NCBI GenBank assembly: GCA_944332715.1
Contig: CALVKN010000068.1
Location: 79,755 to 143,754 of the forward strand
DNA length: 64,000 bases
Origin: an uncultured Bacilli bacterium
GTDB taxonomy: Bacteria; Bacillota_I; Bacilli_A; RF39; UBA660
Direction of reading: 5' to 3'
Both the position numbers and the translations under genes were made by a program. This document shows positions 10,084 to 52,566 of this stretch, piece after piece (within the stretch, counting starts at the first letter, position 1; each line of letters opens with the position of its first letter). Below the pieces are notes generated by a model. The model was given only the letters and a program-made list of their open reading frames with translations, was not told the origin of the DNA and made no database searches.

Positions 10084-10140
10084 CGGACCGCCGGCTGCCG
10101 GCAGCGCGGGCGGACGGAAACGAAATGCAAAAATGCAAAG

Positions 10141-10172
10141 CGGCGCCCCTGCCTTGTCTGGCAGGGGCGCCG
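10141..10172. terminator. Bidirectional stem-loop between convergent genes
   Basis: cggcgcccctgcc (10141-10153) pairs with ggcaggggcgccg (10160-10172). It lies between the stop at 10083 (+) and the stop at 10194 (-). Confidence 0.6.
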
Positions 10173-10193
10173 GTGTTCGTATTGCGTGGGGGG

Positions 10194-11051: not shown

Positions 11052-11168
11052 AGTCAATCCTCCTAATACACGGTGTTGTCGAACAGTATACCATACGGCG
11101 CGGCATAATGCCATAGCCAAAAGCGCCCATCGGGCGGGTTGCTGCCCAGCCTGACTGGCGGCACAGAC

Positions 11169-11205
11169 AAAGGCGCCCCGCCGGCAACGCCGGCGGGGCG
11201 CCTTT
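11169..11205 (-). terminator. Rho-independent terminator downstream of the molybdenum hydroxylase gene
   Basis: Perfect 16-bp stem aaaggcgccccgccgg / ccggcggggcgccttt with a 5-nt loop. On the minus strand the stem runs into TTTGTCTG. Confidence 0.75.
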
Positions 11206-11234
11206 GTGCTTCCAATTTCCAATGGCCGCAGGGC

Positions 11235-13793
11235 CTATTTCTTTTTGCGCGAATACGGCGTGTCCGCAAGCGGCAGGCTGTTGCGCTCCTTGCCGTCGTA
11301 GCGGTAGTAGGCCTCTGCGATGGCGGGCGCGGTGGGGATGGAGGTGATCTCGCCGATGCCGATGGCGCCGTAGGCCACGTTGAGCCCCGGCTTCTCGACG
11401 ATGATGGCCTGCACCTTGGGCACGTTGTCGGCGCGGAACAGGCCGAGCGTGCCAAAGCGCGCGGTGGGCCTGCAGTTGTCGAGCGGGAACTGCTCCGTCA
11501 ACGCGTAGCCCATGCTCATGACGACGCCGCCCTCGATCTGCCCTTCGATGGACAGCGGGTTCACGGCGCGCCCCACGTCGTGCGCGGCGACGATCCGCTC
11601 GAGCCGCCCGTCTTCGCCGACGATGGCCACCTGTGTGGCATAGCCGTAGGCGACGTGGCTCACGGGGTTCGGCTTGTCGGCGCCGAGCGGGTCGGTCTTG
11701 GCCAGGTATTCGGCGTAGAACTCCTCGCCCTCCATGTCGGAGAGGCTCCGTCCCTGCCGCGCCGCGTTGAATAGCGTGCAGGCGCGGCGGCACGCCTCGC
11801 CCGTGATGAGCGTCTGGCGGGAGCCGGAGGTGGTGCCGGAGTCGGGCGCGTCGAACGTGTTCACGCGGTCGTAGTGGATCTGGTCGCGCGGCAGGCCGGT
11901 CGTCTCCGTCACGATCTGCACGAGCACCGTGCCCACACCCTGCCCGATGCAGGATGCGCCCGAGTGGATGGCCAGCCGCCCCTGCTCCACGCACAGGCGC
12001 ACGCGCCCGGTGTCGGGGATGCCGACGCCCACGCCCGCGTTCTTCATCGCGCAGGCGATGCCGGCGCGCGGGCTGGATTCATAGATGTCGCGCACGGCCT
12101 CGAGCGTCTCGACGAGGCCGGTGGAGTCGTCCACGATCTGGCCGTTCGGCAGCGTTTGCCACGGGCGGATGGCGTTGCGGTAGCGGATCTCCCAGGGGGA
12201 GATGCCGAGCTTGTGCGCCATGCGGTTGAGCAGCGTTTCAATGCAGAAGCACGTCTGCGTCACGCCAAAGCCGCGGAACGCGCCGGCGGGCGGGTTGTTC
12301 GTGTAATACGCCTTGCCGTCGATCTCGAAATTCTGGTAGTTGTAGGGGCCGGCCGCGTGCGTGCAGGCGCGCTCGAGCACCGGGCCGCCGAGCGACGCAT
12401 AGGCGCCGGTGTCCGCGACGACCTGCGCCTTGACGCCGAGGATCGTGCCGTCGTCGTCGCAGGCGAGCGTGAAATCCATGTCCATCGGGTGGCGCTTGGG
12501 GTGGATGAGGATGCTCTCTGCGCGCGTCAGCTTGACCTTGACGGGGCGCTTGAGCAGGTACGCGACGAGCGCCGCGTGGTGCTGCACGACCACGTCCTCC
12601 TTGCCGCCAAAGCCGCCGCCGACGAGCTTGTTTTCCACGCGCACCAGCTCCGGCGGCAGGCCGAGCATGGGGCAGATCTCGTGCTGGGTGTCGTACACGC
12701 TCTGGTCGGAACAGTAGATCAGCACGCCCTCGCCCCACGGCTGCGCCACGGCGCACTCCGGCTCGAGGAACGCGTGCTCGGTAAACGGCGTCGTAAAGTG
12801 CGCGGAGAGCACGTGCGGCGCCTCGCGGATCGCCTTGTCGGCGTCGCCGCGGCGCACGTGGCGGTGGGCGAGCAGGTTGCCGCCCTCGTGGAGCTGTGGC
12901 GCGTCCTCGGCCATGGCTTCCTGCGCGGAGCGGACGGGCGGGAGCTCTTCGTATTCGACTTCGACGAGTGCCTTTGCCGCTTCCAGGATCTCCGGCGTCT
13001 CCGCCGCGACGAGCGCGATGGCGTCGCCCAGGTAGTGGGTGATGCCGCCCACGCCGATCATCACGTCCCAGTCGCGCTTGAGGTGGCCCACCTTGTGCAG
13101 GCAGGGGATGTCGTCCGCCGTCAGCACGCAGGCGACGCCGGGCAGCGCCCTGGCGCGCTCGGTGTGGATGGCCAGCACGCGCGCGCGCGGGTATTTGCTG
13201 CGCACGGCGGAGGCGTGGAGCATGCCGGGCAGCTCGATGTCGTCGGTATACACGCCGGTGCCCAGCACCTTTTCGCGCACATCCAGCCGCGGCACGCGCG
13301 CGCCGAGCCGCCAGTCGCCGTCAGCCTTCGGAATCTTGCCGGCGCGCAGTACGGCGGCGGCGATGCGCACCGCCTCGATGATCTTCACGTAGCCCGTGCA
13401 GCGGCAGATGTTGTTGCGCAGCGCGTGCGCGATGGCGGCCTCGTCCGGGTCGGGGTTCACGTCCAGCAGCGCCTTGGCGCACAGCACCATGCCGGGGATG
13501 CAGAAGCCGCACTGCACCGCGCCGGCCGTGCCGAACGCGTATACGTAGACCTCTTTTTCAAAATCGGACAGGCCCTCGACGGTCAGGATGTGCCGCCCGT
13601 CCAGCCTGTCGGTCTGCTGGACGCACGCCTTGACCGGCTTGCCGTCGAGCAGGATGGTGCAGGTGCCGCACGCGCCCTCGCTGCACCCGTCCTTGACGGA
13701 GGTCAGGCGCAGCGTGTCGCGCAGGTAACGCATCAGTTTCTGGTTTTGCGGGACCGTCACGGTCTGGCCGTTGACGGTGAAGGTAGCAGCCAT
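11235..13793 (-). CDS. Xanthine dehydrogenase-family molybdenum hydroxylase: fused [2Fe-2S] and molybdopterin-binding subunit (XdhD / selenium-dependent hydroxylase-like)
   Basis: 852 aa. The N-terminal plant-type and second 2Fe-2S motifs are CSEGACGTCT and CGFCIPG...CRCTGY. Aldehyde oxidase/xanthine dehydrogenase a/b-hammerhead and MoCo-binding regions follow. No FAD domain is present. Confidence 0.88.
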   Translation of the reverse strand: MAATFTVNGQTVTVPQNQKLMRYLRDTLRLTSVKDGCSEGACGTCTILLDGKPVKACVQQTDRLDGRHILTVEGLSDFEKEVYVYAFGTAGAVQCGFCIPGMVLCAKALLDVNPDPDEAAIAHALRNNICRCTGYVKIIEAVRIAAAVLRAGKIPKADGDWRLGARVPRLDVREKVLGTGVYTDDIELPGMLHASAVRSKYPRARVLAIHTERARALPGVACVLTADDIPCLHKVGHLKRDWDVMIGVGGITHYLGDAIALVAAETPEILEAAKALVEVEYEELPPVRSAQEAMAEDAPQLHEGGNLLAHRHVRRGDADKAIREAPHVLSAHFTTPFTEHAFLEPECAVAQPWGEGVLIYCSDQSVYDTQHEICPMLGLPPELVRVENKLVGGGFGGKEDVVVQHHAALVAYLLKRPVKVKLTRAESILIHPKRHPMDMDFTLACDDDGTILGVKAQVVADTGAYASLGGPVLERACTHAAGPYNYQNFEIDGKAYYTNNPPAGAFRGFGVTQTCFCIETLLNRMAHKLGISPWEIRYRNAIRPWQTLPNGQIVDDSTGLVETLEAVRDIYESSPRAGIACAMKNAGVGVGIPDTGRVRLCVEQGRLAIHSGASCIGQGVGTVLVQIVTETTGLPRDQIHYDRVNTFDAPDSGTTSGSRQTLITGEACRRACTLFNAARQGRSLSDMEGEEFYAEYLAKTDPLGADKPNPVSHVAYGYATQVAIVGEDGRLERIVAAHDVGRAVNPLSIEGQIEGGVVMSMGYALTEQFPLDNCRPTARFGTLGLFRADNVPKVQAIIVEKPGLNVAYGAIGIGEITSIPTAPAIAEAYYRYDGKERNSLPLADTPYSRKKK

Positions 13794-43913: not shown

Positions 43914-43942
43914 TTGAAATGACGACACGTTTATGATATCAT
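43914..43942 (+). promoter_or_regulatory. Promoter of the hydrogenase operon (TTGAAA-17-TATCAT)
   Basis: TTGAAA at 43914-43919, a 17-nt spacer, TATCAT at 43937-43942. It sits in an AT-rich region about 150 nt upstream of hydC. Confidence 0.55.
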
Positions 43943-44087
43943 TTAGAAAAAGTTATATCGATATATATAGAAAGGTATGCCCTCCCGGTTCAGCGCTGGC
44001 TGCCTGTGAGGGTTGCATTTCGCCGGGAAGCCCGGACAAGAGCCGGGACTTTCGATCAGGGAGCAAATCGTTCTTAGGAGGTAACGT

Positions 44088-44585
44088 ATGGCAAAGCAGA
44101 AGACCGTGGTACCGTTCCAGGGCACGCCGGAGCAGGAGGCCAAGCTCAAGGAGATCATTGCGGAGTACCGGGAGGTGCGCGGCGCGCTGATGCCGGTGCT
44201 GCAGAAGGCGCAGGAGCTGTATGGCTACCTGCCGATCGAGGTACAGATCATGATCGCCGAGGGCCTGGGCCTGTCGCTGGAGGAAGTGTACGCGGTGGTC
44301 ACGTTCTATTCGCAGTTTGCACTCAATCCGACGGGCAAATACCGCGTGTCGGTGTGCCTGGGCACGGCGTGCTACGTCAAGGGCGCGCAGACGATCCTCG
44401 ACGAGCTGGAGAAGCAGCTGGGCATCAAGGCCGGCGGCACCACGCCGGACGGCCTGTTTACGCTGGAAGCCACGCGTTGCCTGGGGTGCTGCGGGCTTGC
44501 GCCGGTCATGACGGTGGGCGAGGAGGTCTACGGCCGCCTGGTGCCTGCGGATGTAAAGGATATTCTGGCCAAATACCGCGCCTAA
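44088..44585 (+). CDS. hydC: NuoE-like [2Fe-2S] subunit of the bifurcating [FeFe]-hydrogenase (HydC)
   Basis: 165 aa. NuoE/24-kDa family with cluster motifs CLGTACYVKG and CLGCCGLAP. RBS is taggagg. Confidence 0.9.
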   Translation: MAKQKTVVPFQGTPEQEAKLKEIIAEYREVRGALMPVLQKAQELYGYLPIEVQIMIAEGLGLSLEEVYAVVTFYSQFALNPTGKYRVSVCLGTACYVKGAQTILDELEKQLGIKAGGTTPDGLFTLEATRCLGCCGLAPVMTVGEEVYGRLVPADVKDILAKYRA

Positions 44586-44609: not shown

Positions 44610-44957
44610 ATGAAGATCCGGCAAATCGCGGCGCTGCTCGGCGCCGAGGTGCTTGCAGGGGAGGAACACCTGGCAGAGGAGGTGCTCTCCGCCTGTGGCA
44701 GCGACATGATGAGCGACGTGCTGGCCTATGTCAAGGATCAGGCGGTGTTGCTGACGGGCCTGGTGAACCCGCAGGTGATCCGCACGGCGATGATGATGGA
44801 CATGCGGTGCGTGGTGTTCGTGCGCAGCAAGCGCCCGAGCCCGGAAATGCTGGAGCTGGCGCGGGAGAGCGGCATCGCCGTATTGACCACCGCCATGCGC
44901 ATGTACGAGTCGTGCGGCAGGCTGTACAGCGGCGGCCTGGGCCGCGTGGAGGCCTGA
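44610..44957 (+). CDS. DRTGG-domain protein (copy 1)
   Basis: 115 aa. Its layout parallels the second copy at 46689 (L..a.vl.g......V.g.y..D.mSdVl....d.avLlT...N..vi.tA...d...vv...g..p....le.A...gi.vl.t....y), as I recall for DRTGG domains found in hydrogenase operons. Confidence 0.65.
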   Translation: MKIRQIAALLGAEVLAGEEHLAEEVLSACGSDMMSDVLAYVKDQAVLLTGLVNPQVIRTAMMMDMRCVVFVRSKRPSPEMLELARESGIAVLTTAMRMYESCGRLYSGGLGRVEA

Positions 44958-44960
44958 GCC

Positions 44961-45383
44961 GTGGGCGCGCTGCAACTCCACTTCGACGTGGACGGCGACA
45001 ACTTCACGTCCGCCGGCGAGGCGTCGGTCGAGGTCAAGCGCAAGCTGCGCCTGCTCGGCTTTTCGCCGGAGGTCATCCGCTGCGTGTCGATCGCGATGTA
45101 CGAGGGCGAGATCAACATGGTCATCCATGCTCGCGGCGGCGCGGCGGATGTGACGATCTACCGCGACCGGATCGAGATCGTGCTGACCGACCACGGCCCG
45201 GGCATTGCGGACATCGGCCTGGCGATGCAGGAGGGCTATTCCACCGCGCCGGACAACATCCGCACGCTGGGGTTTGGCGCGGGCATGGGCCTGCCCAACA
45301 TGAAGCGCTATACCGATGAAATGGAGATCACGTCCAAGGTCGGCGAGGGGACGACGGTGCGCATGACCGTGCTGGTCAAATGA
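44961..45383 (+). CDS. Small GHKL ATPase of the anti-sigma-factor Ser/Thr kinase type (RsbW/SpoIIAB-like)
   Basis: 140 aa with a GTG start 3 nt after the upstream stop. N-box-like region is AMYEGEINMVIHA, G1 is DHGPGI and G2 is GFGAGMGLPN. Confidence 0.7.
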   Translation: MGALQLHFDVDGDNFTSAGEASVEVKRKLRLLGFSPEVIRCVSIAMYEGEINMVIHARGGAADVTIYRDRIEIVLTDHGPGIADIGLAMQEGYSTAPDNIRTLGFGAGMGLPNMKRYTDEMEITSKVGEGTTVRMTVLVK

Positions 45384-45393
45384 GGAGCGGACG

Positions 45394-46692
45394 ATGGAAT
45401 ACAAACATTCGGTTTCGCTGGATTTAGAAAAGTGCAAGGGCTGTACCAACTGCCTCAAGCGCTGCCCCACGCAGGCGATCCGCATCCGCGACGGCCACGC
45501 CGTCATCGACGCGAGCATGTGCATCGACTGCGGGGAATGTATCCGCGTCTGCCCCTACAAGGCCAAGAAGGCGCTGTTCGACCGGCTGGAGGACATCCCC
45601 GCCGGCAAGAAGTGGCGCATCGCGCTGCCGGCGCCGTCGCTGTATGGCCAGTTCGACCATCTCGACGACGTGGACTATGTGCTGCAGGGCCTGCTCGACA
45701 TCGGCTTTGACGACGTGTTCGAGGTCGCGCGCGCGGCGGAGCTGGTGTCCGAATACACGCGCAACTACATGCGCCGCATGGACGTGCCGCGTCCGGTCAT
45801 CAACTCGGCCTGCCCGGCCATCGTGCGGCTGATCAGCCTGCGGTTCCCGTATCTTTGCGACCACGTGATGCCGCTGCTGCCGCCCATCGAGATCGCCAGC
45901 CGCATGGCCAAGGCCGAGGCGCGGCAAAAGCACCCGGAGCTGCGGGACGACGAGATTTGCACCGTGTTCATCTCGCCGTGCCCCGCCAAGGCGAGCTTTG
46001 TGAAGAACGGGTTCCAGACGGGGGGCGACGGCGTGGACTACGTCGTCTCCATGAGCGACATCTATTTCCGCCTGCTGCCGGCCATGAAGCGGAGCAAGGC
46101 GCCGGAGGCGGCGAGCCAGACCGGCATGATCGGCATCAGCTGGGCGAGCACCGGCGGCGAGGCGTCCGCGCTGCTCAACGACCGGTACCTGGCGGCGGAC
46201 GGCATTGAAAACGTGATCCGCGTGCTCGACCAGATCGAGACGGGCAGCTTCCCGATGCTGGAGTTCGTCGAGCTCAACGCGTGCAACGGCGGCTGCGTCG
46301 GCGGCGCGGCGACCGTGGAGAACCCGTACATCGCGCGCGTGCGGCTGCAGTCGCTGCGGCGGTACCTGCCGGTGTCGGAAAACCGGATCCCGCCGTGCGA
46401 CGACGCGACGTTCGTGCCGGACGACTATGTGACCAACACGTCCGTCAAATACCGCCCGGCCGCGCAGCTGGACGAGGACATGGAGCGGGCGCTCGAAAAG
46501 ATGTCGGCAATCGAGCAGATTTACGAGACGCTGCCGGCGCTCGACTGTGGGTTCTGCGGCGCGCCGTCGTGCCGCGCGTTTGCCGAGGACGTGGTGCGCG
46601 GGGCGTGCCACGTGGACGAGTGCATCGTGCGCATGCGCGAGCGGATGCAGGACTATCTGCGCAAGACGCGCGGGGAGGAGCCGGATTCATGA
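45394..46692 (+). CDS. Sensor-type [FeFe]-hydrogenase-like protein: 2x[4Fe-4S] ferredoxin domain, H-cluster domain and a C-terminal CxxCxxxxC Fe-S domain
   Basis: CKGCTNCLKRCP and CIDCGECIRVCP ferredoxin motifs. H-cluster motifs are degenerate: NSACP, SPCPAK, ELNACNGGCVGG. The C-terminus is LPALDCGFCGAPSCRAFAEDV...C...C. There is no HydA-type N-terminal 2Fe-2S domain. Confidence 0.8.
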   Translation: MEYKHSVSLDLEKCKGCTNCLKRCPTQAIRIRDGHAVIDASMCIDCGECIRVCPYKAKKALFDRLEDIPAGKKWRIALPAPSLYGQFDHLDDVDYVLQGLLDIGFDDVFEVARAAELVSEYTRNYMRRMDVPRPVINSACPAIVRLISLRFPYLCDHVMPLLPPIEIASRMAKAEARQKHPELRDDEICTVFISPCPAKASFVKNGFQTGGDGVDYVVSMSDIYFRLLPAMKRSKAPEAASQTGMIGISWASTGGEASALLNDRYLAADGIENVIRVLDQIETGSFPMLEFVELNACNGGCVGGAATVENPYIARVRLQSLRRYLPVSENRIPPCDDATFVPDDYVTNTSVKYRPAAQLDEDMERALEKMSAIEQIYETLPALDCGFCGAPSCRAFAEDVVRGACHVDECIVRMRERMQDYLRKTRGEEPDS

Positions 46693-47021
46693 CGGTTGGA
46701 GAGCTGGTAGAGGCGCTGCACCTCACGGCCTATGCGCTGCCGGAGCCGGAGCGGGCGGTCACGGGTGCCTATGCGGGCGACCTGCTGAGCTGGGTCATGC
46801 GCCGCGCGCAGGCGGACGGCGCGTGGCTCACGATCATGTCGAACCGCAACATTGTGGCCGTGGCCACGCTGACGGACGTGTCGGCCATCGTGCTGACCGA
46901 GGGCGTGCCGCCGGACGAGGGCGTGGCGGAGCTGGCCGAGGCGCGCGGCGTCAACCTGCTGGGCAGCGCGGCGGACACGCTGGAGACGGGCGCGGCGCTG
47001 CTGGAGCGGCTAAGCACATGA
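46689..47021 (+). CDS. DRTGG-domain protein (copy 2)
   Basis: 110 aa. Its ATG overlaps the upstream TGA (ATGA). Contains GDLLSWVMRRAQADGAWLTIMSNRNIVAVATL...AIVLTEG and has the same layout as copy 1. Confidence 0.65.
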   Translation: MTVGELVEALHLTAYALPEPERAVTGAYAGDLLSWVMRRAQADGAWLTIMSNRNIVAVATLTDVSAIVLTEGVPPDEGVAELAEARGVNLLGSAADTLETGAALLERLST

Positions 47022-47782
47022 GCGTGCTGCGCGCCCAGCTGCACCTGCACTCCTGCCTGTCGCCCTGCGCGGACGACGACATGACGCCCGCCAACATCGC
47101 CGGCATGGCGATGCTCGCCGGGCTGGACGTGGCGGCGCTGACCGACCACAACGCTACCGACAACTGCCCCGCGTTTTTTGCCGCGTGCGAGGCGTATGGC
47201 GTGGTGCCGGTGGGCGGGATGGAGCTGACCACGGCGGAGGAGATCCACCTGGTCTGCCTGTTTGAAAGTTTGGAAGCGGCCATGGCGTTTGGCGCGGCGG
47301 TGCGGCCGTACCGCGGGCGGGTGCCGAACCGGCCGGCGTACTTTGGCCGCCAGCTCGTGATGGACGCGGCGGACCGCGTCGCCGGGGAGGAGCCGTGCCT
47401 GCTGCTGCAGGCGACCGACCTGGCGCTCGAGGCGGCCGTGACGCTCGTGAGGGCGCATGGCGGCGTGGCATATCCGGCGCACCTGGACCGGGAGGCGGGC
47501 GGCCTGCTCGCGATCCTCGGGGCCATGCCCGAGACGCCGCGCTTTCAGGCGGCGGAGGTGCGCGACCCGGCAAACGCGGCGCTGTACCGCGCGCGGCCGG
47601 ATACGGCGGGGCTGCTGCTCGTGTCCGCCTCGGATGCGCACCGGCTCGGGGACGTGGAGGACGCGGCGTTCCCGTTTGACGCCGGCCCGATCGACGATAC
47701 GCGCACGCGGGCGCGCGCCCGGCAGGTGCGCGCGGCGCTCCTGGCGCTGCTGCGGCGCGGGGCGCCGGGGAGGGGCATTTGA
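47018..47782 (+). CDS. PHP-domain metal-dependent phosphoesterase
   Basis: LHLHSCLSPCADDD (HxH), LTDHN, and later AYPAHLDR and SDAHRLGDV motifs; 254 aa. The start overlaps the upstream stop (ATGA). Confidence 0.8.
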   Translation: MSVLRAQLHLHSCLSPCADDDMTPANIAGMAMLAGLDVAALTDHNATDNCPAFFAACEAYGVVPVGGMELTTAEEIHLVCLFESLEAAMAFGAAVRPYRGRVPNRPAYFGRQLVMDAADRVAGEEPCLLLQATDLALEAAVTLVRAHGGVAYPAHLDREAGGLLAILGAMPETPRFQAAEVRDPANAALYRARPDTAGLLLVSASDAHRLGDVEDAAFPFDAGPIDDTRTRARARQVRAALLALLRRGAPGRGI

Positions 47783-47783
47783 G

Positions 47784-48398
47784 ATGAAGGAACTCTCGCT
47801 CAACATTCTCGACATCGCCCAGAATTCCATCCGCGCCGGCGCGCGGCACGTGGAGATCGCGCTCACGGACGGCGGCGGATGGCGCACGCTGACCGTGACG
47901 GACGACGGCAGCGGAATGGACGAGGCGCTGCTCCGGCGGGTGACGGACCCGTTTGCGACCACGCGCACGACGCGGCCGGTGGGGCTGGGGCTGCCGCTGC
48001 TCAAGCTGGCGGCCGAGCAGACGGGCGGCGCGCTTTCCATCGACTCGCGCACGGCGCAGGCCGGGGACGCGGGGGCGGCGTTTGCGGCGGGCAGCGCGCA
48101 CGGCACGCGCGTGACGGCCACGTTTGACCCGGGGCACATCGACTGCGTGCCGCTGGGCGACCTGGCGGCGACCGTGGTCACGCTGCTGCAGGGCAGCCCG
48201 GAGCTCGACTTCCGCTTTACGCTCGCGCTTGCCGGCATGGCGGAGCCGTTCGTGCTGGACACGGCACAGATGCGCGCGGCGCTCGGCGGCGAGGTGCCGC
48301 TCAGCGAGCCGGAGGTGCTGGCCTGGGCGCGGGAGGGCGTCGAGGAGGCGCTCTCGGCGGTGCCGGCGCAGGAAGCGGCCTGGATGGAAACACCCTGA
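47784..48398 (+). CDS. GHKL-family ATPase (histidine-kinase-like ATP-binding domain only)
   Basis: N box is LDIAQNSIRAG, G1 is DDGSGM and G2 is GLGLPLLK. There is no DHp/His phosphoacceptor, TM or sensor domain. It starts 1 nt after the PHP stop codon. Confidence 0.78.
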   Translation: MKELSLNILDIAQNSIRAGARHVEIALTDGGGWRTLTVTDDGSGMDEALLRRVTDPFATTRTTRPVGLGLPLLKLAAEQTGGALSIDSRTAQAGDAGAAFAAGSAHGTRVTATFDPGHIDCVPLGDLAATVVTLLQGSPELDFRFTLALAGMAEPFVLDTAQMRAALGGEVPLSEPEVLAWAREGVEEALSAVPAQEAAWMETP

Positions 48399-48438: not shown

Positions 48439-48813
48439 ATGAAATCGCTAGCTGAACTGCAGGCAATCCGGGACAAGATGAAGGGCAGAGTGGCCCTGCG
48501 CGAGGGTGTCCAGTCCATCCGCATCGTGGTGGGCATGGCCACGTGCGGCATTGCCGCCGGCGCGCGCCCCGTGCTGAACACGCTGGTCGAGGAGATCGAG
48601 CGCCAGGGCCTGGGCGACACCGCGACCGTGACGCAGACCGGTTGCATCGGGATCTGCCGGCTGGAGCCGATCGTCGAGGTGTACGAAAACGGCAAGGACG
48701 AGAAGGTCACCTATGTGAAGATGACGCCGGAGAAGGCCCGCCGCGTCGTGGAAGAGCACATCAAGGGCGGCAAACCCGTCTATGAATACACCATCGGCGA
48801 AGCCCAGAAGTGA
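48439..48813 (+). CDS. Thioredoxin-like [2Fe-2S] ferredoxin (HydD-type small subunit)
   Basis: 124 aa from MKSLAELQAIRDK. Cluster motifs are ATCGIAAG and GCIGICRLEP. Confidence 0.8.
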   Translation: MKSLAELQAIRDKMKGRVALREGVQSIRIVVGMATCGIAAGARPVLNTLVEEIERQGLGDTATVTQTGCIGICRLEPIVEVYENGKDEKVTYVKMTPEKARRVVEEHIKGGKPVYEYTIGEAQK

Positions 48814-48832
48814 CAGTGTTGGGAGGTAAACC

Positions 48833-50629
48833 ATGATTCGTTCACACGTACTGATCTGCGGCGGCACGGGCTGCACCTCGTCGGGCAGCCCCGCGATCCG
48901 CGCGCATCTGGAAAAGGAGCTGGCCGCGCACGGCCTGTCCGACGAGATCAAGGTCGTGCAGACGGGCTGTTTTGGCCTGTGCGCGCTCGGCCCGATCATG
49001 ATCGTCTATCCCGAGGGCACGTTCTACAGCCGCGTGACCGAGGCGGACGTGACGGAGATCGTCGAGGAGCACCTGCTCAAGGGGCGCGTCGTCGACCGCC
49101 TGGTCTACAACGAGCCGGCGCCCGGCAACGAGAAGCACGAGGTGGCGTCGCTGTCCGACACGGGCTTTTACAAGACGCAGCTGCGCGTCGCGCTGCGCAA
49201 CTGCGGCGTCATCAACCCGGAGGACATCGAGGAGTACATCGGCGTGGACGGGTACCAGGCGCTCGGCAAGGTGCTCACCGAAATGACGCCCGAGGAGGTC
49301 ATCGACCTCATGAAGCGCTCCGGCCTGCGCGGCCGCGGCGGCGCGGGCTTCCCGACCGGGCTCAAGTGGGAGTTTGCGGCCAAGAACGTCTGCGACGAGA
49401 AGTACGTCATCTGCAACGCCGACGAGGGTGACCCGGGCGCGTTCATGGACCGCTCGGTGCTCGAGGGCGACCCGCACGCGGTGCTCGAGGCCATGGCCAT
49501 CGCGGGCTATGCCATCGGCGCGCACCACGGCTACATCTACGTGCGCGCGGAGTACCCCATCGCGGTCAAGCGGCTGGAGATCGCCATCGGCCAGGCGCGG
49601 GACTACGGCCTGCTCGGGAAGAACATCTTCGACAGCGGGTTCGACTTTGACATCGACATCCGCCTGGGCGCGGGCGCGTTCGTGTGCGGCGAGGAGACGG
49701 CGCTGATCACCTCCATCGAGGGCAACCGCGGCGAGCCGAAGAACAAGCCGCCGTTCCCGGCGAACAAGGGCCTGTTCGGGCAGCCGACGATCATCAACAA
49801 CGTCGAGACGTTGGCCAACATCCCGCAGATCATCGTCAAGGGGCCGGAGTGGTTCGCGTCGATGGGCACCGAGACGTCCAAGGGCACCAAGGTGTTTGCG
49901 CTCGGCGGCAAGATCACGAACACCGGCCTCGTCGAGATCCCCATGGGCACCACGTTGCGCGAGATCATCTACGACATCGGCGGCGGCATCCCGGGCGGCA
50001 AGGCGTTCAAGGCGGCGCAGACGGGCGGCCCGTCCGGCGGCTGCATCCCGGCCAAGCACCTCGATACGCCGATCGACTACGAGAACCTGAAGGCCATCGG
50101 CTCGATGATGGGCTCCGGCGGGCTCATCGTCATGGACGAGGACAACTGCATGGTGGACGTGGCGCGCTTCTTCCTGGAGTTCACCGTGGACGAGAGCTGC
50201 GGCAAGTGCGTCCCGTGCCGCATCGGCACGCGGCGGCTGCTGGAGCTGCTCAACAAGATCACCGAGGGCAACGGCACGCTCGAGGACATCGACAAGATGG
50301 AGGAGCTGTGCCACTACATCCAGAAGAACGCGCTGTGCGCGCTCGGGCAGACGGCGCCGAACCCGGTGCTGTCCACGCTGAAGTATTTCCGCGAGGAGTA
50401 TGAGGCGCACGTGGTGGAGAAGCGCTGCCCGGCGGGCGTGTGCAAAAAGCTCCTGCACTATGAGATCGACCCGGAGAAGTGCCGCGGCTGTACCGCGTGC
50501 GCGCGCAAGTGCCCGGTGGGCGCGATCCAGGGCAAGGTGCGCGAGGTGCATACGATCGACAAGGCCAAGTGTATCAAGTGCGGCGCGTGCATGGAGACGT
50601 GCAAGTTTGGCGCCATTTCGAAACAGTAA
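48833..50629 (+). CDS. hydB: NuoF-like NADH-binding flavoprotein subunit of the bifurcating [FeFe]-hydrogenase (HydB)
   Basis: 598 aa. N-terminal thioredoxin-like 2Fe-2S domain (CGGTGCTSSG...CFGLCALGP), FMN/NADH motif GLRGRGGAGFPTGLKW, N3 cluster motif CGKCVPCRIG, and C-terminal CRGCTACARKCP and CIKCGACMETC. Confidence 0.95.
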   Translation: MIRSHVLICGGTGCTSSGSPAIRAHLEKELAAHGLSDEIKVVQTGCFGLCALGPIMIVYPEGTFYSRVTEADVTEIVEEHLLKGRVVDRLVYNEPAPGNEKHEVASLSDTGFYKTQLRVALRNCGVINPEDIEEYIGVDGYQALGKVLTEMTPEEVIDLMKRSGLRGRGGAGFPTGLKWEFAAKNVCDEKYVICNADEGDPGAFMDRSVLEGDPHAVLEAMAIAGYAIGAHHGYIYVRAEYPIAVKRLEIAIGQARDYGLLGKNIFDSGFDFDIDIRLGAGAFVCGEETALITSIEGNRGEPKNKPPFPANKGLFGQPTIINNVETLANIPQIIVKGPEWFASMGTETSKGTKVFALGGKITNTGLVEIPMGTTLREIIYDIGGGIPGGKAFKAAQTGGPSGGCIPAKHLDTPIDYENLKAIGSMMGSGGLIVMDEDNCMVDVARFFLEFTVDESCGKCVPCRIGTRRLLELLNKITEGNGTLEDIDKMEELCHYIQKNALCALGQTAPNPVLSTLKYFREEYEAHVVEKRCPAGVCKKLLHYEIDPEKCRGCTACARKCPVGAIQGKVREVHTIDKAKCIKCGACMETCKFGAISKQ

Positions 50630-50644
50630 CGGAGGGCTGCATCA

Positions 50645-52522
50645 ATGGAAACTGTGAAAGTCAAGATCAACGGCATCCAGGTCGAGGTGCCAGCGGATGC
50701 GACCATCCTGGAGGCCGCCCACAAGGCGGGCGTGCGGATCCCAACGCTCTGCTACCTCAAGAAGATCAACGCCATCGCCGCCTGCCGCATCTGCCTCGTG
50801 GAGGCGACCGGGGTGCGCGGCCTGGCCGCGGCCTGCGTGCAGCAGGTGGCGGACGGCATGGAGGTGCAGACCAACACCCCCGCGCTGCGCAAGGCGCGGA
50901 AGACCACGCTCGAGCTGATCCTCTCCAACCACCGCATGGACTGCCTGTCCTGCGTGCGCAGCGACGACTGCGAGCTGAGGCGACTGGCGCATGAATACGG
51001 CGTGGACCAGTACAAATACGGCCGCGGCGAGCAGACGGCGCAGGCCGAGGCGCCCGCGGCGAAGCCGGGCGCGCGCAAAATGCGCTGCCGCGTGTGCGGC
51101 GCCGTGTTCGACGAGGGGATGGTCGCCTGCCCGGTGTGCGGCGTGGGGCCGGAGAACTTTGAGCCGGTCGACGAGGCGCCGGCCGTGGACCTGTCGCCGC
51201 GCATCCTGCGGGACAACAGCAAGTGCATTCTGTGCCGCCGCTGCGTGGCCGTTTGCAAGTACAACCAGGGCGTGTCCGTGATCGGCGCGAACGAGCGCGG
51301 GTTCGACACGCGCATCTCCTGCGCGTTCGACATGCCGCTCAGCGACACTTCCTGCGTCAACTGCGGCCAGTGCGTCGCGGTGTGCCCGACCGGCGCGCTG
51401 ACCGAGCGGGACGACACCGACAAGGTCTGGAAGGCGCTGGCCGACCCGTCCAAGGTCGTGATCGTCGGCCCGGCGCCGAGCGTGCGCGCGCAGATCGGCG
51501 AGTGCTTCGGCTATCCGATCGGCACCAACGTGGAGGGCAAGCTCGTGGCGGCGCTGCGCCGGCTGGGCTTTGACCACGTGTTCGACGTGGACACCGCCGC
51601 GGACGTGACGATCATGGAGGAGGGCACCGAGCTGCTCGAGCGGCTGCAAAACGGCGGCGTGCTGCCGCTGATGACGTCCTGCTCGCCCGGCTGGATCAAG
51701 TTCTGCGAGCACTACTATCCCGACATGATCCCGAACCTGTCCAGCTGCAAGAGCCCGCAGCAGATGTTCGGCGCGCTCATCAAGACGTACTGGGCGGAGA
51801 AGAACGGCGTGGACCCGAAGGACATCGTCGTCGTGTCGGCCATGCCGTGCACCGCCAAGAAGTTCGAGATCACGCGCGACCATCAGGCGGCGGCCGGCGT
51901 GCCGGACGTGGACATCTCTCTGACGACGCGCGAGCTGGCGGGCATGATCAAGCGCGCAGGCATCCGCTTCAACGATCTCGAGGACGAAGCGTTTGAGCCG
52001 GCGTTCGGCATCGCCTCCGGCGCGGGCCACATCTTCGGCGCCACCGGCGGCGTCATGGAGGCGGCGCTGCGCACCGTGGCGGAGATCGTAACGGGCAAGC
52101 CGCTCGAGAGCGTGGACTTCCAGGCTGTGCGCGGCACGGAGGCCATCAAGGAGGCCGAGTATGACCTGGCGGGCACGAAGGTGCGCGTGGCGGTCACCTC
52201 CGGCCTGGCCAACGCGAGGAAGCTGCTTGACATGGTCAGGCGCGGCGAGAAGGACTATCACTTCATCGAGGTCATGGCGTGCCCCGGCGGGTGTGTCAAC
52301 GGCGGCGGCCAGCCGCACCAGAGCGGCGAGGTGATGAACTTCACCGACCTGCGCGCCGAGCGCGCCAAGGCGCTCTACAGCGAGGACGCGGGCATGGCGT
52401 TGCGCAAGAGCCACGAGAACCCGGTGGTCAAGGAGCTGTATGAGACGTATCTCGAAAAGCCCGGCAGCCACAAGGCGCACGAGATCCTGCACACGAGCTA
52501 CGTGCGGCGGAGCGTGTACTGA
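50645..52522 (+). CDS. hydA: [FeFe]-hydrogenase catalytic subunit HydA (bifurcating/trimeric type)
   Basis: 625 aa. It has an N-terminal 2Fe-2S domain, a His-ligated cluster motif HRMDCLSCVRSDDC, and ferredoxin motifs CILCRRCVAVC and CVNCGQCVAVCP. H-cluster motifs are TSCSPGW, MPCTAKKFE and EVMACPGGCVNGGGQP. Confidence 0.95.
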   Translation: METVKVKINGIQVEVPADATILEAAHKAGVRIPTLCYLKKINAIAACRICLVEATGVRGLAAACVQQVADGMEVQTNTPALRKARKTTLELILSNHRMDCLSCVRSDDCELRRLAHEYGVDQYKYGRGEQTAQAEAPAAKPGARKMRCRVCGAVFDEGMVACPVCGVGPENFEPVDEAPAVDLSPRILRDNSKCILCRRCVAVCKYNQGVSVIGANERGFDTRISCAFDMPLSDTSCVNCGQCVAVCPTGALTERDDTDKVWKALADPSKVVIVGPAPSVRAQIGECFGYPIGTNVEGKLVAALRRLGFDHVFDVDTAADVTIMEEGTELLERLQNGGVLPLMTSCSPGWIKFCEHYYPDMIPNLSSCKSPQQMFGALIKTYWAEKNGVDPKDIVVVSAMPCTAKKFEITRDHQAAAGVPDVDISLTTRELAGMIKRAGIRFNDLEDEAFEPAFGIASGAGHIFGATGGVMEAALRTVAEIVTGKPLESVDFQAVRGTEAIKEAEYDLAGTKVRVAVTSGLANARKLLDMVRRGEKDYHFIEVMACPGGCVNGGGQPHQSGEVMNFTDLRAERAKALYSEDAGMALRKSHENPVVKELYETYLEKPGSHKAHEILHTSYVRRSVY

Positions 52523-52532
52523 GCCATAAAAA

Positions 52533-52566
52533 AGCGGCCTCCCGATCGGGAGGTCGCTTTTTTGCG
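52533..52566 (+). terminator. Rho-independent terminator of the hydrogenase operon
   Basis: gcggcctccc / gggaggtcgc form a 10-bp stem (one G-U pair) with a gatc loop, followed by TTTTTTG. Confidence 0.85.

What the first reader, a model, noticed from the sequence alone, without database searches (positions are those of the whole stretch)
44610..48398. Six-gene sensor/kinase/phosphatase cassette nested inside the HydABC bifurcating hydrogenase operon
Six tightly packed genes with no obvious catalytic role in H2 turnover sit between hydC (44088-44585) and the ferredoxin/hydB/hydA genes (48439-52522). In order they are: a DRTGG protein; an RsbW/SpoIIAB-like small GHKL ATPase; an H-cluster-domain protein with a C-terminal CxxCxxxxC Fe-S motif; a second DRTGG protein; a PHP phosphoesterase; and a second GHKL ATPase. 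The gene junctions are 3 nt, 10 nt, two ATGA start/stop overlaps (46689-46692 and 47018-47021) and 1 nt. I see no hairpin terminator before 52533, so the whole stretch from the promoter at 43914 looks like one ~8.6 kb transcription unit with translational coupling. None of the six proteins has a DNA-binding, receiver or His-phosphotransfer (DHp) domain, so this is not a classical two-component system. The composition looks more like a partner-switching or Ser/Thr-phosphorylation module. Its input would be an H2-sensing hydrogenase-like protein and its output would be post-translational control of HydABC. Related gene sets are known next to hydrogenases in other Clostridia, and sensory-type hydrogenases have been studied spectroscopically. 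To my knowledge the signalling circuit itself (substrates of the two ATPases, the roles of DRTGG and PHP) is undescribed.
Basis: partly seen in the sequence, partly recalled or inferred. Interest (0 to 1): 0.75.

Follow-up and report, generated by a model that had tools for sequence, protein, structure and literature searches.

The report
Hydrogen-sensor signalling genes inside hydrogenase operon
A gut-type Clostridia bacterium carries, inside the operon for its NADH/ferredoxin-linked hydrogenase, a known but mechanistically unsolved set of genes for a hydrogen-sensor protein, two small partner proteins, a switch kinase and a phosphoesterase.

Summary
All six genes, their domains, the junctions and the single promoter/terminator frame are as described. 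All six genes are present in 63/63 informative related genomes, and all ten operon genes in 39/39.

The locus itself is not new. The hydrogenase-like protein is a group D (M2e) "putative sensory" [FeFe] hydrogenase. Its position next to kinase-like genes and a bifurcating HydABC has been reported since about 2010-2012. The second ATPase and the "ferredoxin" correspond to HydE/Tte0891 and HydD of the classical hydC-hydE-hydD-hydB-hydA operon.

The "six-gene cassette" is really two units:
- a mobile five-gene module, DRTGG1-kinase-HydS-DRTGG2-PHP;
- one resident operon gene, the second ATPase (K2).

- The DRTGG1-kinase pair is fused in one lineage.
- HydS and a CBS pair fused to the kinase are near-exclusive alternatives (26/29 versus 31/32 loci).
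- The module also sits in operons of formate-dehydrogenase-like NuoEF enzymes.

The PHP protein resembles nucleotide and nucleic-acid phosphoesterases, not protein phosphatases. The second ATPase resembles MutL-type ATPases as much as kinases.

The signalling mechanism remains unproven. A 2026 paper still lists the sensor's partners as unknown.

The parts
43914..43942 (+). Sigma-70-like promoter candidate: TTGAAA, 17-nt spacer, TATCAT, with a TG extension
   Evidence: 10/12 match. It lies in the AT-rich gap between divergent genes. It is a consensus match only.
44088..44585 (+). hydC, the NuoE-like [2Fe-2S] subunit of the bifurcating hydrogenase
   Evidence: Pfam 2Fe-2S_thioredx, 181.6 bits. 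NuoE and HoxE models match in NCBIfam.
44610..44957 (+). D1, a stand-alone DRTGG protein (115 aa) that is the constant upstream partner of K1
   Evidence: Pfam DRTGG, 35.9 bits. The family has 713 representatives at E<=1e-10. D32, S35 and T49 are invariant across 50 diverse members. D1 is fused to K1 in protein P0507.
44961..45383 (+). K1, an RsbW/SpoIIAB/RsbT-like small GHKL protein (140 aa) and the candidate switch kinase
   Evidence: Pfam HATPase_c_2, 41.5 bits. Anti-sigma F factor 1til matches at E = 3e-5 with E48, N52 and H56 aligned. The N-box, DxGxG and GxGxG motifs are conserved. NCBIfam spIIAB scores 57.5 bits, below the cut-off of 135.
45394..46692 (+). HydS, a group D (M2e) putative sensory [FeFe] hydrogenase (432 aa)
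   Evidence: Fer4 x2, Fe_hyd_lg_C and PF04060. H-cluster Cys are C140, C196, C297 and C301. Substitutions: C299->A139, M353->S194, M497->N295. The C-terminal Cx2Cx4Cx16C is present and there is no PAS domain.
46689..47021 (+). D2, a second DRTGG protein (110 aa) and a paralogue of D1, overlapping HydS and PHP by ATGA
   Evidence: Pfam DRTGG, 32.6 bits. hhalign D1 against D2 gives probability 98.5%, E = 1.7e-15, although BLASTP finds no match.
47018..47782 (+). PHP-family metal-dependent phosphoesterase (254 aa) with an intact metal site and a conserved CLSPC insert
   Evidence: Pfam PHP, 33.3 bits. H9, H11, H44, E69, H77, H155, D206 and H208 are invariant, D19 nearly so, and C13 and C17 are invariant. 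The AF2 model has pLDDT 94. Nearest folds are EndoQ, BAD_1165/Cv1693, RNase AM and the Pol III PHP domain. Nearest sequences are 2yb1, 9etk and 5zb8.
47784..48398 (+). K2, a GHKL ATPase with a small C-terminal domain (204 aa), equivalent to HydE (A. woodii), Tte0891 and Cthe_0339
   Evidence: Pfam HATPase_c, 53.4 bits. D10, N14, D40, G42, G44, G67 and G69 are invariant, as is an H118-x-D120-C121-x-P123-L-G-D motif. The AF2 model has pLDDT 87.
48439..48813 (+). HydD-like small thioredoxin-fold ferredoxin-like protein (124 aa) with only three conserved Cys
   Evidence: Pfam 2Fe-2S_thioredx scores 22.8 bits, below the cut-off. Conservation is shown. HydD of Caldanaerobacter and A. woodii is described.
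48833..50629 (+). hydB, the NuoF-like FMN/NADH subunit with an N-terminal [2Fe-2S] domain and a C-terminal 2x[4Fe-4S] domain
   Evidence: Pfam Complex1_51K, NADH_4Fe-4S, Fer4 and 2Fe-2S_thioredx.
50645..52522 (+). hydA, the catalytic [FeFe] hydrogenase subunit, with a lineage-specific CxxC...CxxC insertion
   Evidence: NCBIfam NF040763 scores 880 bits against a cut-off of 765. Pfam finds Fe_hyd_lg_C and Fe_hyd_SSU. The insertion is absent from 49/49 orthologues.
52527..52564 (.). Bidirectional intrinsic terminator hairpin flanked by an A-run and a T-run
   Evidence: -28.2 kcal/mol, z = -5.5, and 0 of 200 shuffles fold as well.

Best explanation
The stretch is one operon for an electron-bifurcating HydABC(D) hydrogenase that carries two accessory layers.

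Layer 1 is resident in this operon type: K2 (= HydE/Tte0891) plus the small HydD protein. K2 is an ATP-binding GHKL protein and is not a stable enzyme subunit.

Layer 2 is a five-gene signalling module, D1-K1-HydS-D2-PHP, inserted here between hydC and K2.

Proposed mechanism:
- HydS is a slow, high-affinity, H-cluster-containing H2 sensor. Its H2-dependent state is passed by direct contact to K1, an RsbW/SpoIIAB-type switch kinase.
- K1 acts on, or swaps between, its obligate partner D1 and a target. By analogy with partner switching, it phosphorylates a Ser or Thr of the DRTGG protein. S35 and T49 are the invariant candidates.
- D2, a paralogue of D1, works with the PHP hydrolase as the reset arm.
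- The output is most likely exerted on the NuoE/NuoF (HydC/HydB) part of the enzyme rather than on DNA.

Shown: gene content, domain identities, intact ATP- and metal-binding residues, co-conservation, modularity, the D1-K1 fusion, and the interchange of HydS with a CBS pair.

Inferred: every protein-protein contact, the phosphorylation, the PHP substrate and the target.
For: HydS identity:
- HydS meets every sequence criterion of group D sensory hydrogenases (with criteria).
- The characterised member TamHydS has low turnover, high H2 affinity and an H2-induced structural change.

K1:
- K1 aligns to SpoIIAB with the catalytic Glu, Asn and His conserved.
- All of its ATP-binding motifs are conserved.

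K1 and D1 as a pair:
- They are the most conserved cassette proteins, with median identity 70-72% against 60% for HydS.
- D1 immediately precedes K1 in every locus.
- They are fused, with a linker of about 30 aa, in a lineage seen on 10 contigs, in the same gene context.

HydS and CBS as alternative inputs:
- Short K1 goes with HydS in 26 of 29 loci.
- CBS-CBS-K1 goes without HydS in 31 of 32 loci, and in 22 of these D2 follows K1 directly.
- This places HydS functionally at K1.

D2 and PHP:
- D2 is homologous to D1.
- D2 overlaps PHP by 4 nt in most loci.
- The PHP metal ligands are invariant.

Target at the enzyme:
- The module is embedded at different positions in operons of NuoEF-type enzymes with different catalytic subunits: HydA, a molybdopterin FDH-like subunit, and a NuoG-Pyr_redox fusion.
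- One lineage fuses a receiver domain to the HydC homologue.
- In the window's clade all six genes are present in 63/63 loci and all ten in 39/39.
- No DNA-binding protein lies in or beside the operon.
- NADH-dependent hydrogenase activity in Caldanaerobacter responds to H2 pressure, as cited.
Against: - No STAS domain and no PP2C phosphatase are present, so the partner-switching analogy rests on K1 alone.
- There is no evidence that a DRTGG domain can be phosphorylated. T49 is the generic DRTGG motif residue.
- The nearest PHP relatives act on nucleotides and nucleic acids, not on phosphoproteins.
- Some modules lack PHP (L140, L146, L147), and some stand alone far from any hydABC.
- rex is translationally coupled to the module in one lineage, and an AraC regulator flanks TamHydS. 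Both would fit a transcriptional output.
- The neighbourhood samples were chosen by similarity and are not an unbiased census.
Confidence: 0.45

Rival explanations
1. The sensor and module are the same, but the output is transcriptional. K1 behaves as an anti-sigma or anti-regulator factor, like RsbW and SpoIIAB. It sequesters a sigma factor or a repressor encoded elsewhere (Rex, or an AraC-type protein), so that H2 controls hyd and fermentation gene expression.
For: - The closest characterised relatives of K1 are anti-sigma factors.
- rex overlaps the D1-K1 gene in L081-L083, with a perfect Rex box upstream.
- An AraC regulator flanks TamHydS.
- Module copies stand alone, away from hydABC.
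- The group C HydS of R. albus is linked to transcriptional changes under H2.
Against: - No sigma factor or DNA-binding gene lies in the operon or its flanks in the window.
- No rex gene lies within 10 kb in any of the 80 relatives or anywhere in the window.
- The operon's own promoter looks sigma-70-like.
- Repeated nesting inside enzyme operons at different positions is not needed for a trans-acting transcriptional switch.
Confidence: 0.25
2. The genes are assembly, maturation or quality-control factors for the Fe-S/flavin enzyme, not a signalling circuit. K2 would be a MutL/Hsp90-like ATP-driven clamp or chaperone working with HydD. PHP and the DRTGG proteins would handle a nucleotide cofactor or by-product. 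HydS would be a low-activity hydrogenase or a scaffold.
For: - The K2 model matches two-domain GHL ATPases best.
- Tte0891 was not among the subunits identified in the purified complex.
- The PHP protein sits in the nucleotide-phosphoesterase clade.
- The cassette follows NuoEF enzymes whatever the catalytic subunit.
Against: - Many HydABC enzymes, such as that of Thermotoga, assemble without these genes.
- The interchange of HydS with a CBS ligand-sensing pair points to a sensory input, not to assembly.
- K1 is a switch-kinase type protein.
- TamHydS has sensor-like kinetics.
- TM-scores for K2 against the GHL ATPases are only 0.5-0.58.
Confidence: 0.15
3. The module signals through a small nucleotide rather than through protein phosphorylation. 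The PHP enzyme would degrade a nucleotide or oligonucleotide signal such as pAp. The DRTGG proteins (and the CBS pair) would be the nucleotide-binding receptors, as in the CBS-DRTGG regulatory insert of family II pyrophosphatases.
For: - The nearest PHP relatives are pAp phosphatase and RNase AM.
- D1 matches the DRTGG part of the adenine-nucleotide-regulated CBS-pyrophosphatase (PDB 3l2b, 3l31).
- CBS pairs are fused to K1 in the HydS-less variant.
Against: - No nucleotide cyclase or synthetase is present in the module.
- K1 is a protein-kinase/ATPase type.
- PHP is missing from some otherwise intact modules.
- In the pyrophosphatase, ligand binding is by the CBS domains and not by DRTGG (from my own recollection of that work, not tested here).
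Confidence: 0.1

Closest known systems
Group D (M2e) putative sensory [FeFe] hydrogenase loci: TamHydS of Thermoanaerobacter mathranii; TTE0887, Cthe_0335, Athe_1292, Csac_1857, Cphy_3798, Teth39_1463
   Same: - The hydrogenase architecture is the same: 2x[4Fe-4S] N-domain, an H-domain lacking the proton-relay Cys, M353 replaced by Ser, C-terminal Cx2Cx4Cx16C, and no PAS domain.
- It is encoded with kinase-like genes next to a trimeric bifurcating group A hydrogenase.
- HydS lies five gene numbers away from the first listed hydrogenase gene in all six published examples. This matches the variant order D1-K1-HydS-D2-PHP-hydC-K2-hydD-hydB-hydA seen here in 8 loci.
   Different: - In the window hydC sits in front of the module, so the module is nested between hydC and K2.
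- M497 is Asn here, against Leu in TamHydS.
- No AraC regulator is adjacent.
- I could not align directly to TamHydS because its sequence is not held.
Classical hydC-hydE-hydD-hydB-hydA operon: Acetobacterium woodii Awo_c26970-27010; Caldanaerobacter hydC-tte0891-hydD-hydB-hydA; C. thermocellum Cthe_0338-0342
   Same: The subunits and their order are the same. They include an ORF like a histidine-kinase ATP-binding domain (K2) between hydC and the small HydD protein. That ORF is not part of the purified enzyme.
   Different: Five extra genes are inserted between hydC and K2 in the window. In A. woodii no HydS module is described beside the operon.
Group C (M2f) sensory [FeFe] hydrogenases: T. 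maritima HydS and R. albus HydS
   Same: These are H-cluster sensor proteins lacking the proton pathway, with the same C-terminal Fe-S motif, encoded beside catabolic hydrogenases. They are proposed to report H2 through phosphorylation-type partners.
   Different: Group C carries a fused PAS domain and pairs with a Ser/Thr (PP2C-type) phosphatase subunit. The window protein has no PAS domain and pairs with DRTGG proteins, an RsbW-like kinase and a PHP hydrolase.
Partner-switching modules: RsbV-RsbW-SigB with RsbU/RsbX, SpoIIAA-SpoIIAB-SigF with SpoIIE, and RsbR/S-RsbT
   Same: - A small HATPase_c_2 switch kinase is encoded directly after a small alpha/beta partner protein.
- A hydrolase is encoded nearby.
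- The partner genes are paralogous (D1/D2, like RsbS/RsbV).
   Different: There is no STAS domain, no PP2C phosphatase and no sigma factor. K1 scores below the NCBIfam cut-offs for SpoIIAB and RsbW. Phosphorylation of a DRTGG protein has never been shown, to my knowledge.
Regulatory [NiFe] hydrogenase system HoxBC-HoxJ-HoxA of aerobic H2 oxidisers
   Same: The logic is the same: a catalytically slow hydrogenase acts as an H2 sensor wired to a kinase.
   Different: The hydrogenase class is unrelated. HoxJ is a true PAS histidine kinase with a response regulator and a transcriptional output. None of these parts is present here.
CBS-DRTGG-CBS regulatory insert of family II (CBS-) pyrophosphatases (PDB 3l2b, 3l31)
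   Same: DRTGG, a CBS pair and a metal-dependent phosphoesterase occur together. D1 matches this DRTGG region. The HydS-less variant of the module has a CBS pair on K1.
   Different: There the three are domains of one enzyme, and the phosphoesterase is of the DHH type. Here they are separate proteins with a GHKL kinase, and the phosphoesterase is of the PHP type.

Membership tests
Group D (M2e) putative sensory [FeFe] hydrogenase | [quoted passage not shown] | tested here: met
   Fer4, Fer4_10 and Fer4_7 hits over residues 7-57. The Cys motifs are invariant.
Group D (M2e) putative sensory [FeFe] hydrogenase | H-domain with the four H-cluster-ligating cysteines | tested here: met
   Fe_hyd_lg_C, 108 bits. 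C140, C196, C297 and C301 are invariant in the SACP, SPCPAK and ELNACxGGC motifs.
Group D (M2e) putative sensory [FeFe] hydrogenase | Proton-relay Cys299 (CpI numbering) absent, and M353 replaced by Ser or Thr | tested here: met
   A139 precedes C140, and S194 sits in the SPC motif.
Group D (M2e) putative sensory [FeFe] hydrogenase | C-terminal Cx2Cx4Cx16C motif and no PAS domain | tested here: met
   C385, C388, C393 and C410. PF04060 hit, and no PAS hit at E<=0.01.
Group D (M2e) putative sensory [FeFe] hydrogenase | H2 binding with sensor-like kinetics and a regulatory role | not testable with these tools
   This needs a biochemical test. Even for TamHydS the sensory role is called putative.
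Partner-switching module (RsbW/RsbV, SpoIIAB/SpoIIAA type) | HATPase_c_2 serine kinase / anti-sigma protein | tested here: inconclusive
   K1 passes Pfam HATPase_c_2 (41.5 bits against 27.4) and aligns to 1til with catalytic residues conserved. It is below the NCBIfam cut-offs for SpoIIAB (57.5 against 135) and RsbW.
Partner-switching module (RsbW/RsbV, SpoIIAB/SpoIIAA type) | STAS-domain antagonist that is the kinase substrate | tested here: not met
   No STAS hit in any of the six proteins. The small partners are DRTGG proteins.
Partner-switching module (RsbW/RsbV, SpoIIAB/SpoIIAA type) | PP2C (SpoIIE/RsbU-type) phosphatase and a sigma-factor target | tested here: not met
   The hydrolase is of the PHP type. 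There is no sigma factor in the operon or its flanks.
Classical two-component system | HisKA/DHp domain with a phospho-accepting His, plus a receiver domain | tested here: not met
   No HisKA, HPt or Response_reg hit in the window genes. A receiver is fused to the HydC homologue only in the distant locus L089.
HydABC(D) electron-bifurcating [FeFe] hydrogenase operon with HydE-type ATPase | NuoE-like HydC, NuoF-like HydB carrying extra Fe-S domains, and an M3-type HydA | tested here: met
   Pfam architectures. HydA passes NF040763 (880 bits against 765).
HydABC(D) electron-bifurcating [FeFe] hydrogenase operon with HydE-type ATPase | An ORF like a histidine-kinase ATP-binding domain, followed by small HydD, upstream of hydB | tested here: met
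   K2-fdx-hydB-hydA are adjacent in all complete loci.
HydABC(D) electron-bifurcating [FeFe] hydrogenase operon with HydE-type ATPase | NADH- and ferredoxin-coupled bifurcating activity | not testable with these tools
   This needs an enzymological test.
PHP-family protein tyrosine phosphatases (CpsB/YwqE) | Sequence or fold membership in the CpsB/YwqE subfamily | tested here: not met
   No CpsB-type Pfam hit. The top 50 Foldseek and all profile hits are EndoQ, Cv1693/BAD_1165, RNase AM, TM0559 and Pol III PHP; no CpsB or YwqE entry appears.
PHP superfamily metal-dependent phosphoesterase | Full set of His/Asp/Glu ligands for the trinuclear metal site | tested here: met
   H9, H11, H44, E69, H77, H155, D206 and H208 are invariant and D19 is at least 90% conserved in 40 sequences. 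The model has pLDDT 94. The geometry was not inspected because no coordinates were available.
GHL ATPases (MutL / GyrB / Hsp90 / Topo VI-B) | Bergerat ATP-binding fold plus a second 'transducer' domain that contributes a catalytic Lys | tested here: inconclusive
   The best Foldseek hits cover both K2 domains, but TMq is only 0.5-0.58. The ExxxN-type N-box reads D10...N14. No conserved Lys is evident in the C-terminal domain.

The most novel reading that the evidence does not exclude
D1-K1-D2-PHP would be a previously undescribed, widespread type of partner-switching-like signalling cassette dedicated to NuoE/NuoF-type (Bfu/HydABC-family) flavin-based bifurcating enzymes.
- DRTGG proteins would take the place of STAS antagonists.
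- A PHP hydrolase would take the place of the PP2C phosphatase.
- The input would be exchangeable: a trans-acting H2-sensing hydrogenase (HydS) or a cis CBS pair on the kinase.
- The output would be direct, ATP-dependent control of electron flow in the enzyme, through HydC/HydB, possibly with K2 and HydD.

If so, cells would tune a bifurcating enzyme post-translationally to H2 pressure or energy charge.
Probability: 0.3. Interest if true: 0.78.

Novelty: new member of a known kind. Interest (0 to 1): 0.52.

Why it matters
Bifurcating HydABC hydrogenases decide whether fermenters in guts, rumens and digesters release or consume H2. How they are switched is unknown.

Group C and D [FeFe] hydrogenases have been called 'sensory' for more than ten years, yet no signalling partner has been demonstrated. 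The comparative pattern found here names concrete candidates and an order of action:
- the D1-K1 fusion;
- HydS and a CBS pair on K1 as near-exclusive alternatives;
- a mobile five-gene module;
- the same module inside formate-dehydrogenase-like NuoEF operons.

Together these suggest that HydS talks to K1, that D1 is K1's partner, and that D2/PHP is the opposing arm. The open question can therefore be tested with a handful of purified proteins.

If the output is post-translational, it would be the first example of direct signal control of an electron-bifurcating enzyme.

Tried and rejected
- Rfam scan of the whole window: no match. The 143-nt leader is not unusually structured, z = -1.3. A riboswitch or leader mechanism is therefore not supported.
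- Rex control of this operon: there is no Rex box upstream in the window. No rex gene lies within 10 kb in any of the 80 relatives or anywhere in the window. Rex-like matches upstream in 30/69 AT-rich relatives were not checked against a background.
- Gene fusions among the six genes in the 80 close relatives: none. The apparent K2-HydD fusion in L161 and the D2-PHP fusion in L130 are frameshift artefacts. The K2-NuoG fusion in L152 rests on a single contig and is unverified. Long D1 'fusions' with ArgJ, peptidase M3 or SPOR look like chimeric or frameshifted calls.
- L036, the one close relative without D2/PHP/K2 downstream of HydS: it has unrelated housekeeping genes after a 133-aa ORF with no family. 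Its upstream side is cut by the contig end.
- A four-Cys Fe-S site in PHP: C50 is not conserved in the distant L081 homologue, so only C13, C17 and C80 are general.
- A DHp-like H-box in K2 (H118-x4-P-L): the spacing resembles HisKA, but the model puts it in a loop or short helix, not a long helix. This is not supported.
- Calusinska 2010, Poudel 2016 and Zheng 2014 could not be read because they are not held. What I say about them is from memory or from citing papers.
It was repeated with a narrower alignment.
Cys-metal geometry in PHP and the domain interface in K2 could therefore not be inspected.

Full report
**1. The observation**

All are in frame, and most are preceded by a purine-rich Shine-Dalgarno-like stretch. 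The junctions inside the finding are 3 nt, 10 nt, ATGA, ATGA and 1 nt.

Independent public gene calls on metagenome contigs that encode the identical HydS protein give the same product lengths. These calls include the GTG-started 140-aa gene.

Pfam confirms every domain call above the curated cut-offs:
- DRTGG in both small proteins;
- HATPase_c_2/HATPase_c in the 140-aa protein;
- Fer4 x2 + Fe_hyd_lg_C + PF04060 in the 432-aa protein;
- PHP in the 254-aa protein;
- HATPase_c in the 204-aa protein.

No DNA-binding, receiver, HisKA or PAS domain is found.

The operon frame is also as described:
- A sigma-70-like site sits at 43914-43942.
- A strong bidirectional hairpin sits at 52527-52564, at -28.2 kcal/mol and z = -5.5.
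- The single + strand terminator-like match inside the operon is weak and within chance expectation.
- Both flanks are - strand genes of unrelated function.
- GC3 is uniform across the ten genes.

**2. What the hydrogenase-like protein is**

The 432-aa protein belongs to a very large and well conserved family: all 8000 scored candidates had E <= 1e-10.

It has the four H-cluster cysteines, C140, C196, C297 and C301. The proton-relay Cys is replaced by Ala, M353 by Ser and M497 by Asn. It ends with C385-x2-C388-x4-C393-x16-C410 and has no PAS domain.

These are the published criteria for group D (M2e) putative sensory [FeFe] hydrogenases, whose only characterised member is TamHydS.

**3. Co-conservation**

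A scan of one genome per species found at least 594 loci. I analysed the best 80, all Clostridia MAGs with HydS identity of 55-71%.
- All six genes are present in 63 of 63 loci with enough flank.
- All ten genes are present in 39 of 39.
- The short gaps and 4-nt overlaps are the same as in the window.
- In eight loci the order is D1-K1-HydS-D2-PHP, then a gap of about 207 nt, then hydC-K2-fdx-hydB-hydA.

Sampling distant D1 homologues gave further arrangements:
- The two halves are divergently transcribed (L085).
- The module stands alone, next to housekeeping genes, with PHP (L136) or without it (L140, L146, L147).
- The module keeps the same nested position, but in an operon whose last gene is a molybdopterin, formate-dehydrogenase-like NuoG homologue and whose HydC homologue carries a receiver domain (L089).

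One is a mobile five-gene module, D1-K1-HydS-D2-PHP. The other is K2, which travels with hydC, the small ferredoxin-like gene, hydB and hydA.

**4. What is already known**

The literature has covered this neighbourhood for some time:
- Group D hydrogenases lie five gene numbers away from the first listed gene of the trimeric bifurcating hydrogenase in Caldicellulosiruptor, Caldanaerobacter, C. thermocellum, C. phytofermentans and Thermoanaerobacter. [quoted passage not shown]
- The native Caldanaerobacter order is hydC-tte0891-hydD-hydB-hydA. Tte0891 was not among the subunits identified in the purified enzyme (PMC4694547).
- In A. woodii the same position holds HydE. [quoted passage not shown]
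- Cthe_0339 is annotated as a histidine kinase (PMC3990059).

K2 and the 'ferredoxin' are therefore HydE/Tte0891 and HydD.

The signalling circuit, however, is not described:
- A 2026 paper refutes redox signalling through the C-terminal cluster and names identification of the interaction partners as future work (PMC13104023).
- A 2022 review calls the sensory role putative.
- The survey of the HydABC/Bfu enzyme family does not mention kinase, PHP or CBS genes.
- A full-text search for DRTGG together with hydrogenase found no relevant paper.

**5. The individual proteins**

*K1.* K1 aligns to the anti-sigma F factor SpoIIAB (1til, E = 3e-5), with E48, N52 and H56 matching the catalytic Glu, Asn and His. 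It aligns more weakly to RsbW. Its N, G1 and G2 boxes are conserved. It scores below the NCBIfam equivalog cut-offs. It is a relative of these kinases, not a member of either family.

*D1 and D2.* BLASTP finds no similarity between them. Profile comparison shows they are clearly homologous, at 98.5% probability.
- D1 has 713 representatives at E <= 1e-10 in a library clustered at 50% identity.
- D32, S35 and T49 are invariant across 50 diverse D1 members.
- By profile, D1 matches the solved DRTGG structures 3l2b/3l31 and 2ioj.
- D1 and K1 are the most conserved proteins of the cassette, at 70-72% median identity. HydS is at 60%, and D2, PHP and K2 are at about 49%.

*PHP.* Eight expected metal ligands are invariant and a ninth (D19) is at least 90% conserved, as is a CLSPC insertion directly after the HxH motif. 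Its confident model (pLDDT 94) and its sequence profile both find the same relatives: EndoQ, the pAp phosphatase Cv1693/BAD_1165, RNase AM, TM0559 and the Pol III PHP domain. No CpsB or YwqE protein phosphatase entry appears.

*K2.* All ATP-binding residues are invariant, and so is an H-x-D-C-x-P-L-G-D motif in a small C-terminal domain. Its model (pLDDT 87) matches the MutL, MLH1, PMS2, Topo VI-B and Hsp90 N-terminal regions over both domains, at TMq 0.5-0.58. It matches histidine-kinase catalytic domains over the ATP-binding fold only.

**6. New comparative evidence on wiring**

First, D1 and K1 are fused through a linker of about 30 residues in protein P0507. It is seen on 10 contigs from independent sources. 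Its context is rex-[D1K1]-HydS-D2-PHP | hydC-K2-hydD-hydB-hydA, in an organism whose HydS is only 42% identical to the window's.

Second, I scanned metagenomes with a distant D1 alignment (at least 590 loci, 80 analysed) and annotated the neighbourhoods with profile HMMs. This revealed a second architecture in which K1 carries an N-terminal CBS pair and HydS is absent:
- Short K1 goes with HydS in 26 of 29 loci.
- CBS-K1 goes without HydS in 31 of 32 loci.
- In 22 of these, D2 follows K1 directly.
- The CBS pair was confirmed by Pfam in 6 of 6 proteins tested.
- Exceptions exist: L091 and L114 have both a CBS pair and HydS.

Third, the CBS-type module is again followed by hydC-K2-hydD-hydB, or is nested between a NuoF-like and a NuoG-like gene. 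The catalytic partners include HydA, a molybdopterin enzyme and a NuoG-Pyr_redox fusion.

**7. Most likely mechanism**

- HydS and the CBS pair are alternative inputs to K1. HydS probably acts by binding K1.
- D1 is K1's obligate partner. By analogy with RsbV/RsbW and RsbS/RsbT, it would be K1's substrate or antagonist.
- D2 with PHP is the opposing arm.
- The target is probably the NuoE/NuoF part of the enzyme. The module follows that part whatever the catalytic subunit is, and no DNA-binding protein is encoded with it in the window's clade.

All contacts, the phosphorylation and the PHP substrate are inferences. The evidence against is set out above under the best explanation. I give this model 0.45.

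The rivals are:
- a transcriptional output through an anti-regulator role of K1 (0.25);
- an assembly or quality-control role, mainly for K2-HydD (0.15);
- nucleotide-based signalling (0.10).

**8. Verdict**

The locus is a new member of a known gene neighbourhood and not a new kind of system.

The interest lies in the open mechanistic question and in the specific, testable wiring suggested by the fusion and by the HydS/CBS exchange. The nesting itself is of little interest: it is one of several permutations.

The two neighbourhood samples were selected by similarity to the query, so the counts are not an unbiased census.

Noticed in passing
window 51023-51160 (HydA residues ~127-172): HydA carries an insertion of about 45 aa with a CxxC...CxxC rubredoxin/zinc-ribbon-like motif (weak Pfam RUBY_RBDX, 21 bits) between the NuoG-type N-terminal Fe-S region and the Fer4 domain. 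It is absent from all 49 full-length orthologues in the related loci.
   Followed up: partly
window 48439-48813: The HydD-like 'ferredoxin' keeps only three conserved cysteines (C35, C68, C72), and its thioredoxin-like [2Fe-2S] Pfam score is below the cut-off. It may bind a cluster with a non-Cys ligand, or none. This fits the published remark that A. woodii HydD has no obvious cofactor site.
   Followed up: partly
window 47018-47782 (PHP residues 9-19, 80): The PHP protein has an invariant H-x-H-S-C-L-S-P-C stretch. This is a three-residue insertion with two cysteines where TrpH-type PHP enzymes have HSxxSDG. C80 is also conserved. A Cys may serve as a metal ligand or a redox switch. The model coordinates could not be inspected.
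   Followed up: partly
window 43933-43942 and 43954-43965: Two short perfect palindromes lie at the promoter: ATGATATCAT overlaps the -10 hexamer and TATATCGATATA lies just downstream. They are possible operator sites. No Rex box, Rfam family or unusual leader structure was found.
   Followed up: no
L081 7372-8813 (also L082, L083): A rex gene (Put_DNA-bind_N + CoA_binding) overlaps by 4 nt the start of a D1-K1 fusion gene that heads the HydS module. A perfect Rex box, TTGTTAAAAATTTAACAA, lies upstream of rex. No rex gene is near the module in the window or in its 80 close relatives.
   Followed up: partly
L089 5469-6407: The HydC (NuoE-like) homologue has an N-terminal response-regulator receiver domain (110 bits). 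The operon holds the same nested D1-K1-HydS-D2-PHP-K2-HydD set but ends in a formate-dehydrogenase-like molybdopterin subunit. A second receiver protein, fused to GCV_H, lies just upstream.
   Followed up: partly
L140, L146, L147, L153 (about 10001-12500 in each): Some gut-metagenome organisms carry a stand-alone D1-K1-HydS-D2 set with no PHP gene, and no K2 or hydABC genes within the flanks held (10 kb each side except L153). In L147 the next gene is an isoleucyl-tRNA synthetase.
   Followed up: partly
L152 7949-11659: A shortened K2 reads in frame, with no stop codon, into a 1088-aa NuoG-like/Pyr_redox subunit. It is seen on a single contig, so a sequencing error cannot be excluded. In the related L137 the two genes are separate.
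   Followed up: partly
L084 137-1549: A D1-like gene followed by CBS-CBS-K1 lies next to hypD and hypE ([NiFe] hydrogenase maturation genes) on the opposite strand. The contig is only 3.9 kb, so the rest of the context is unknown.
   Followed up: no
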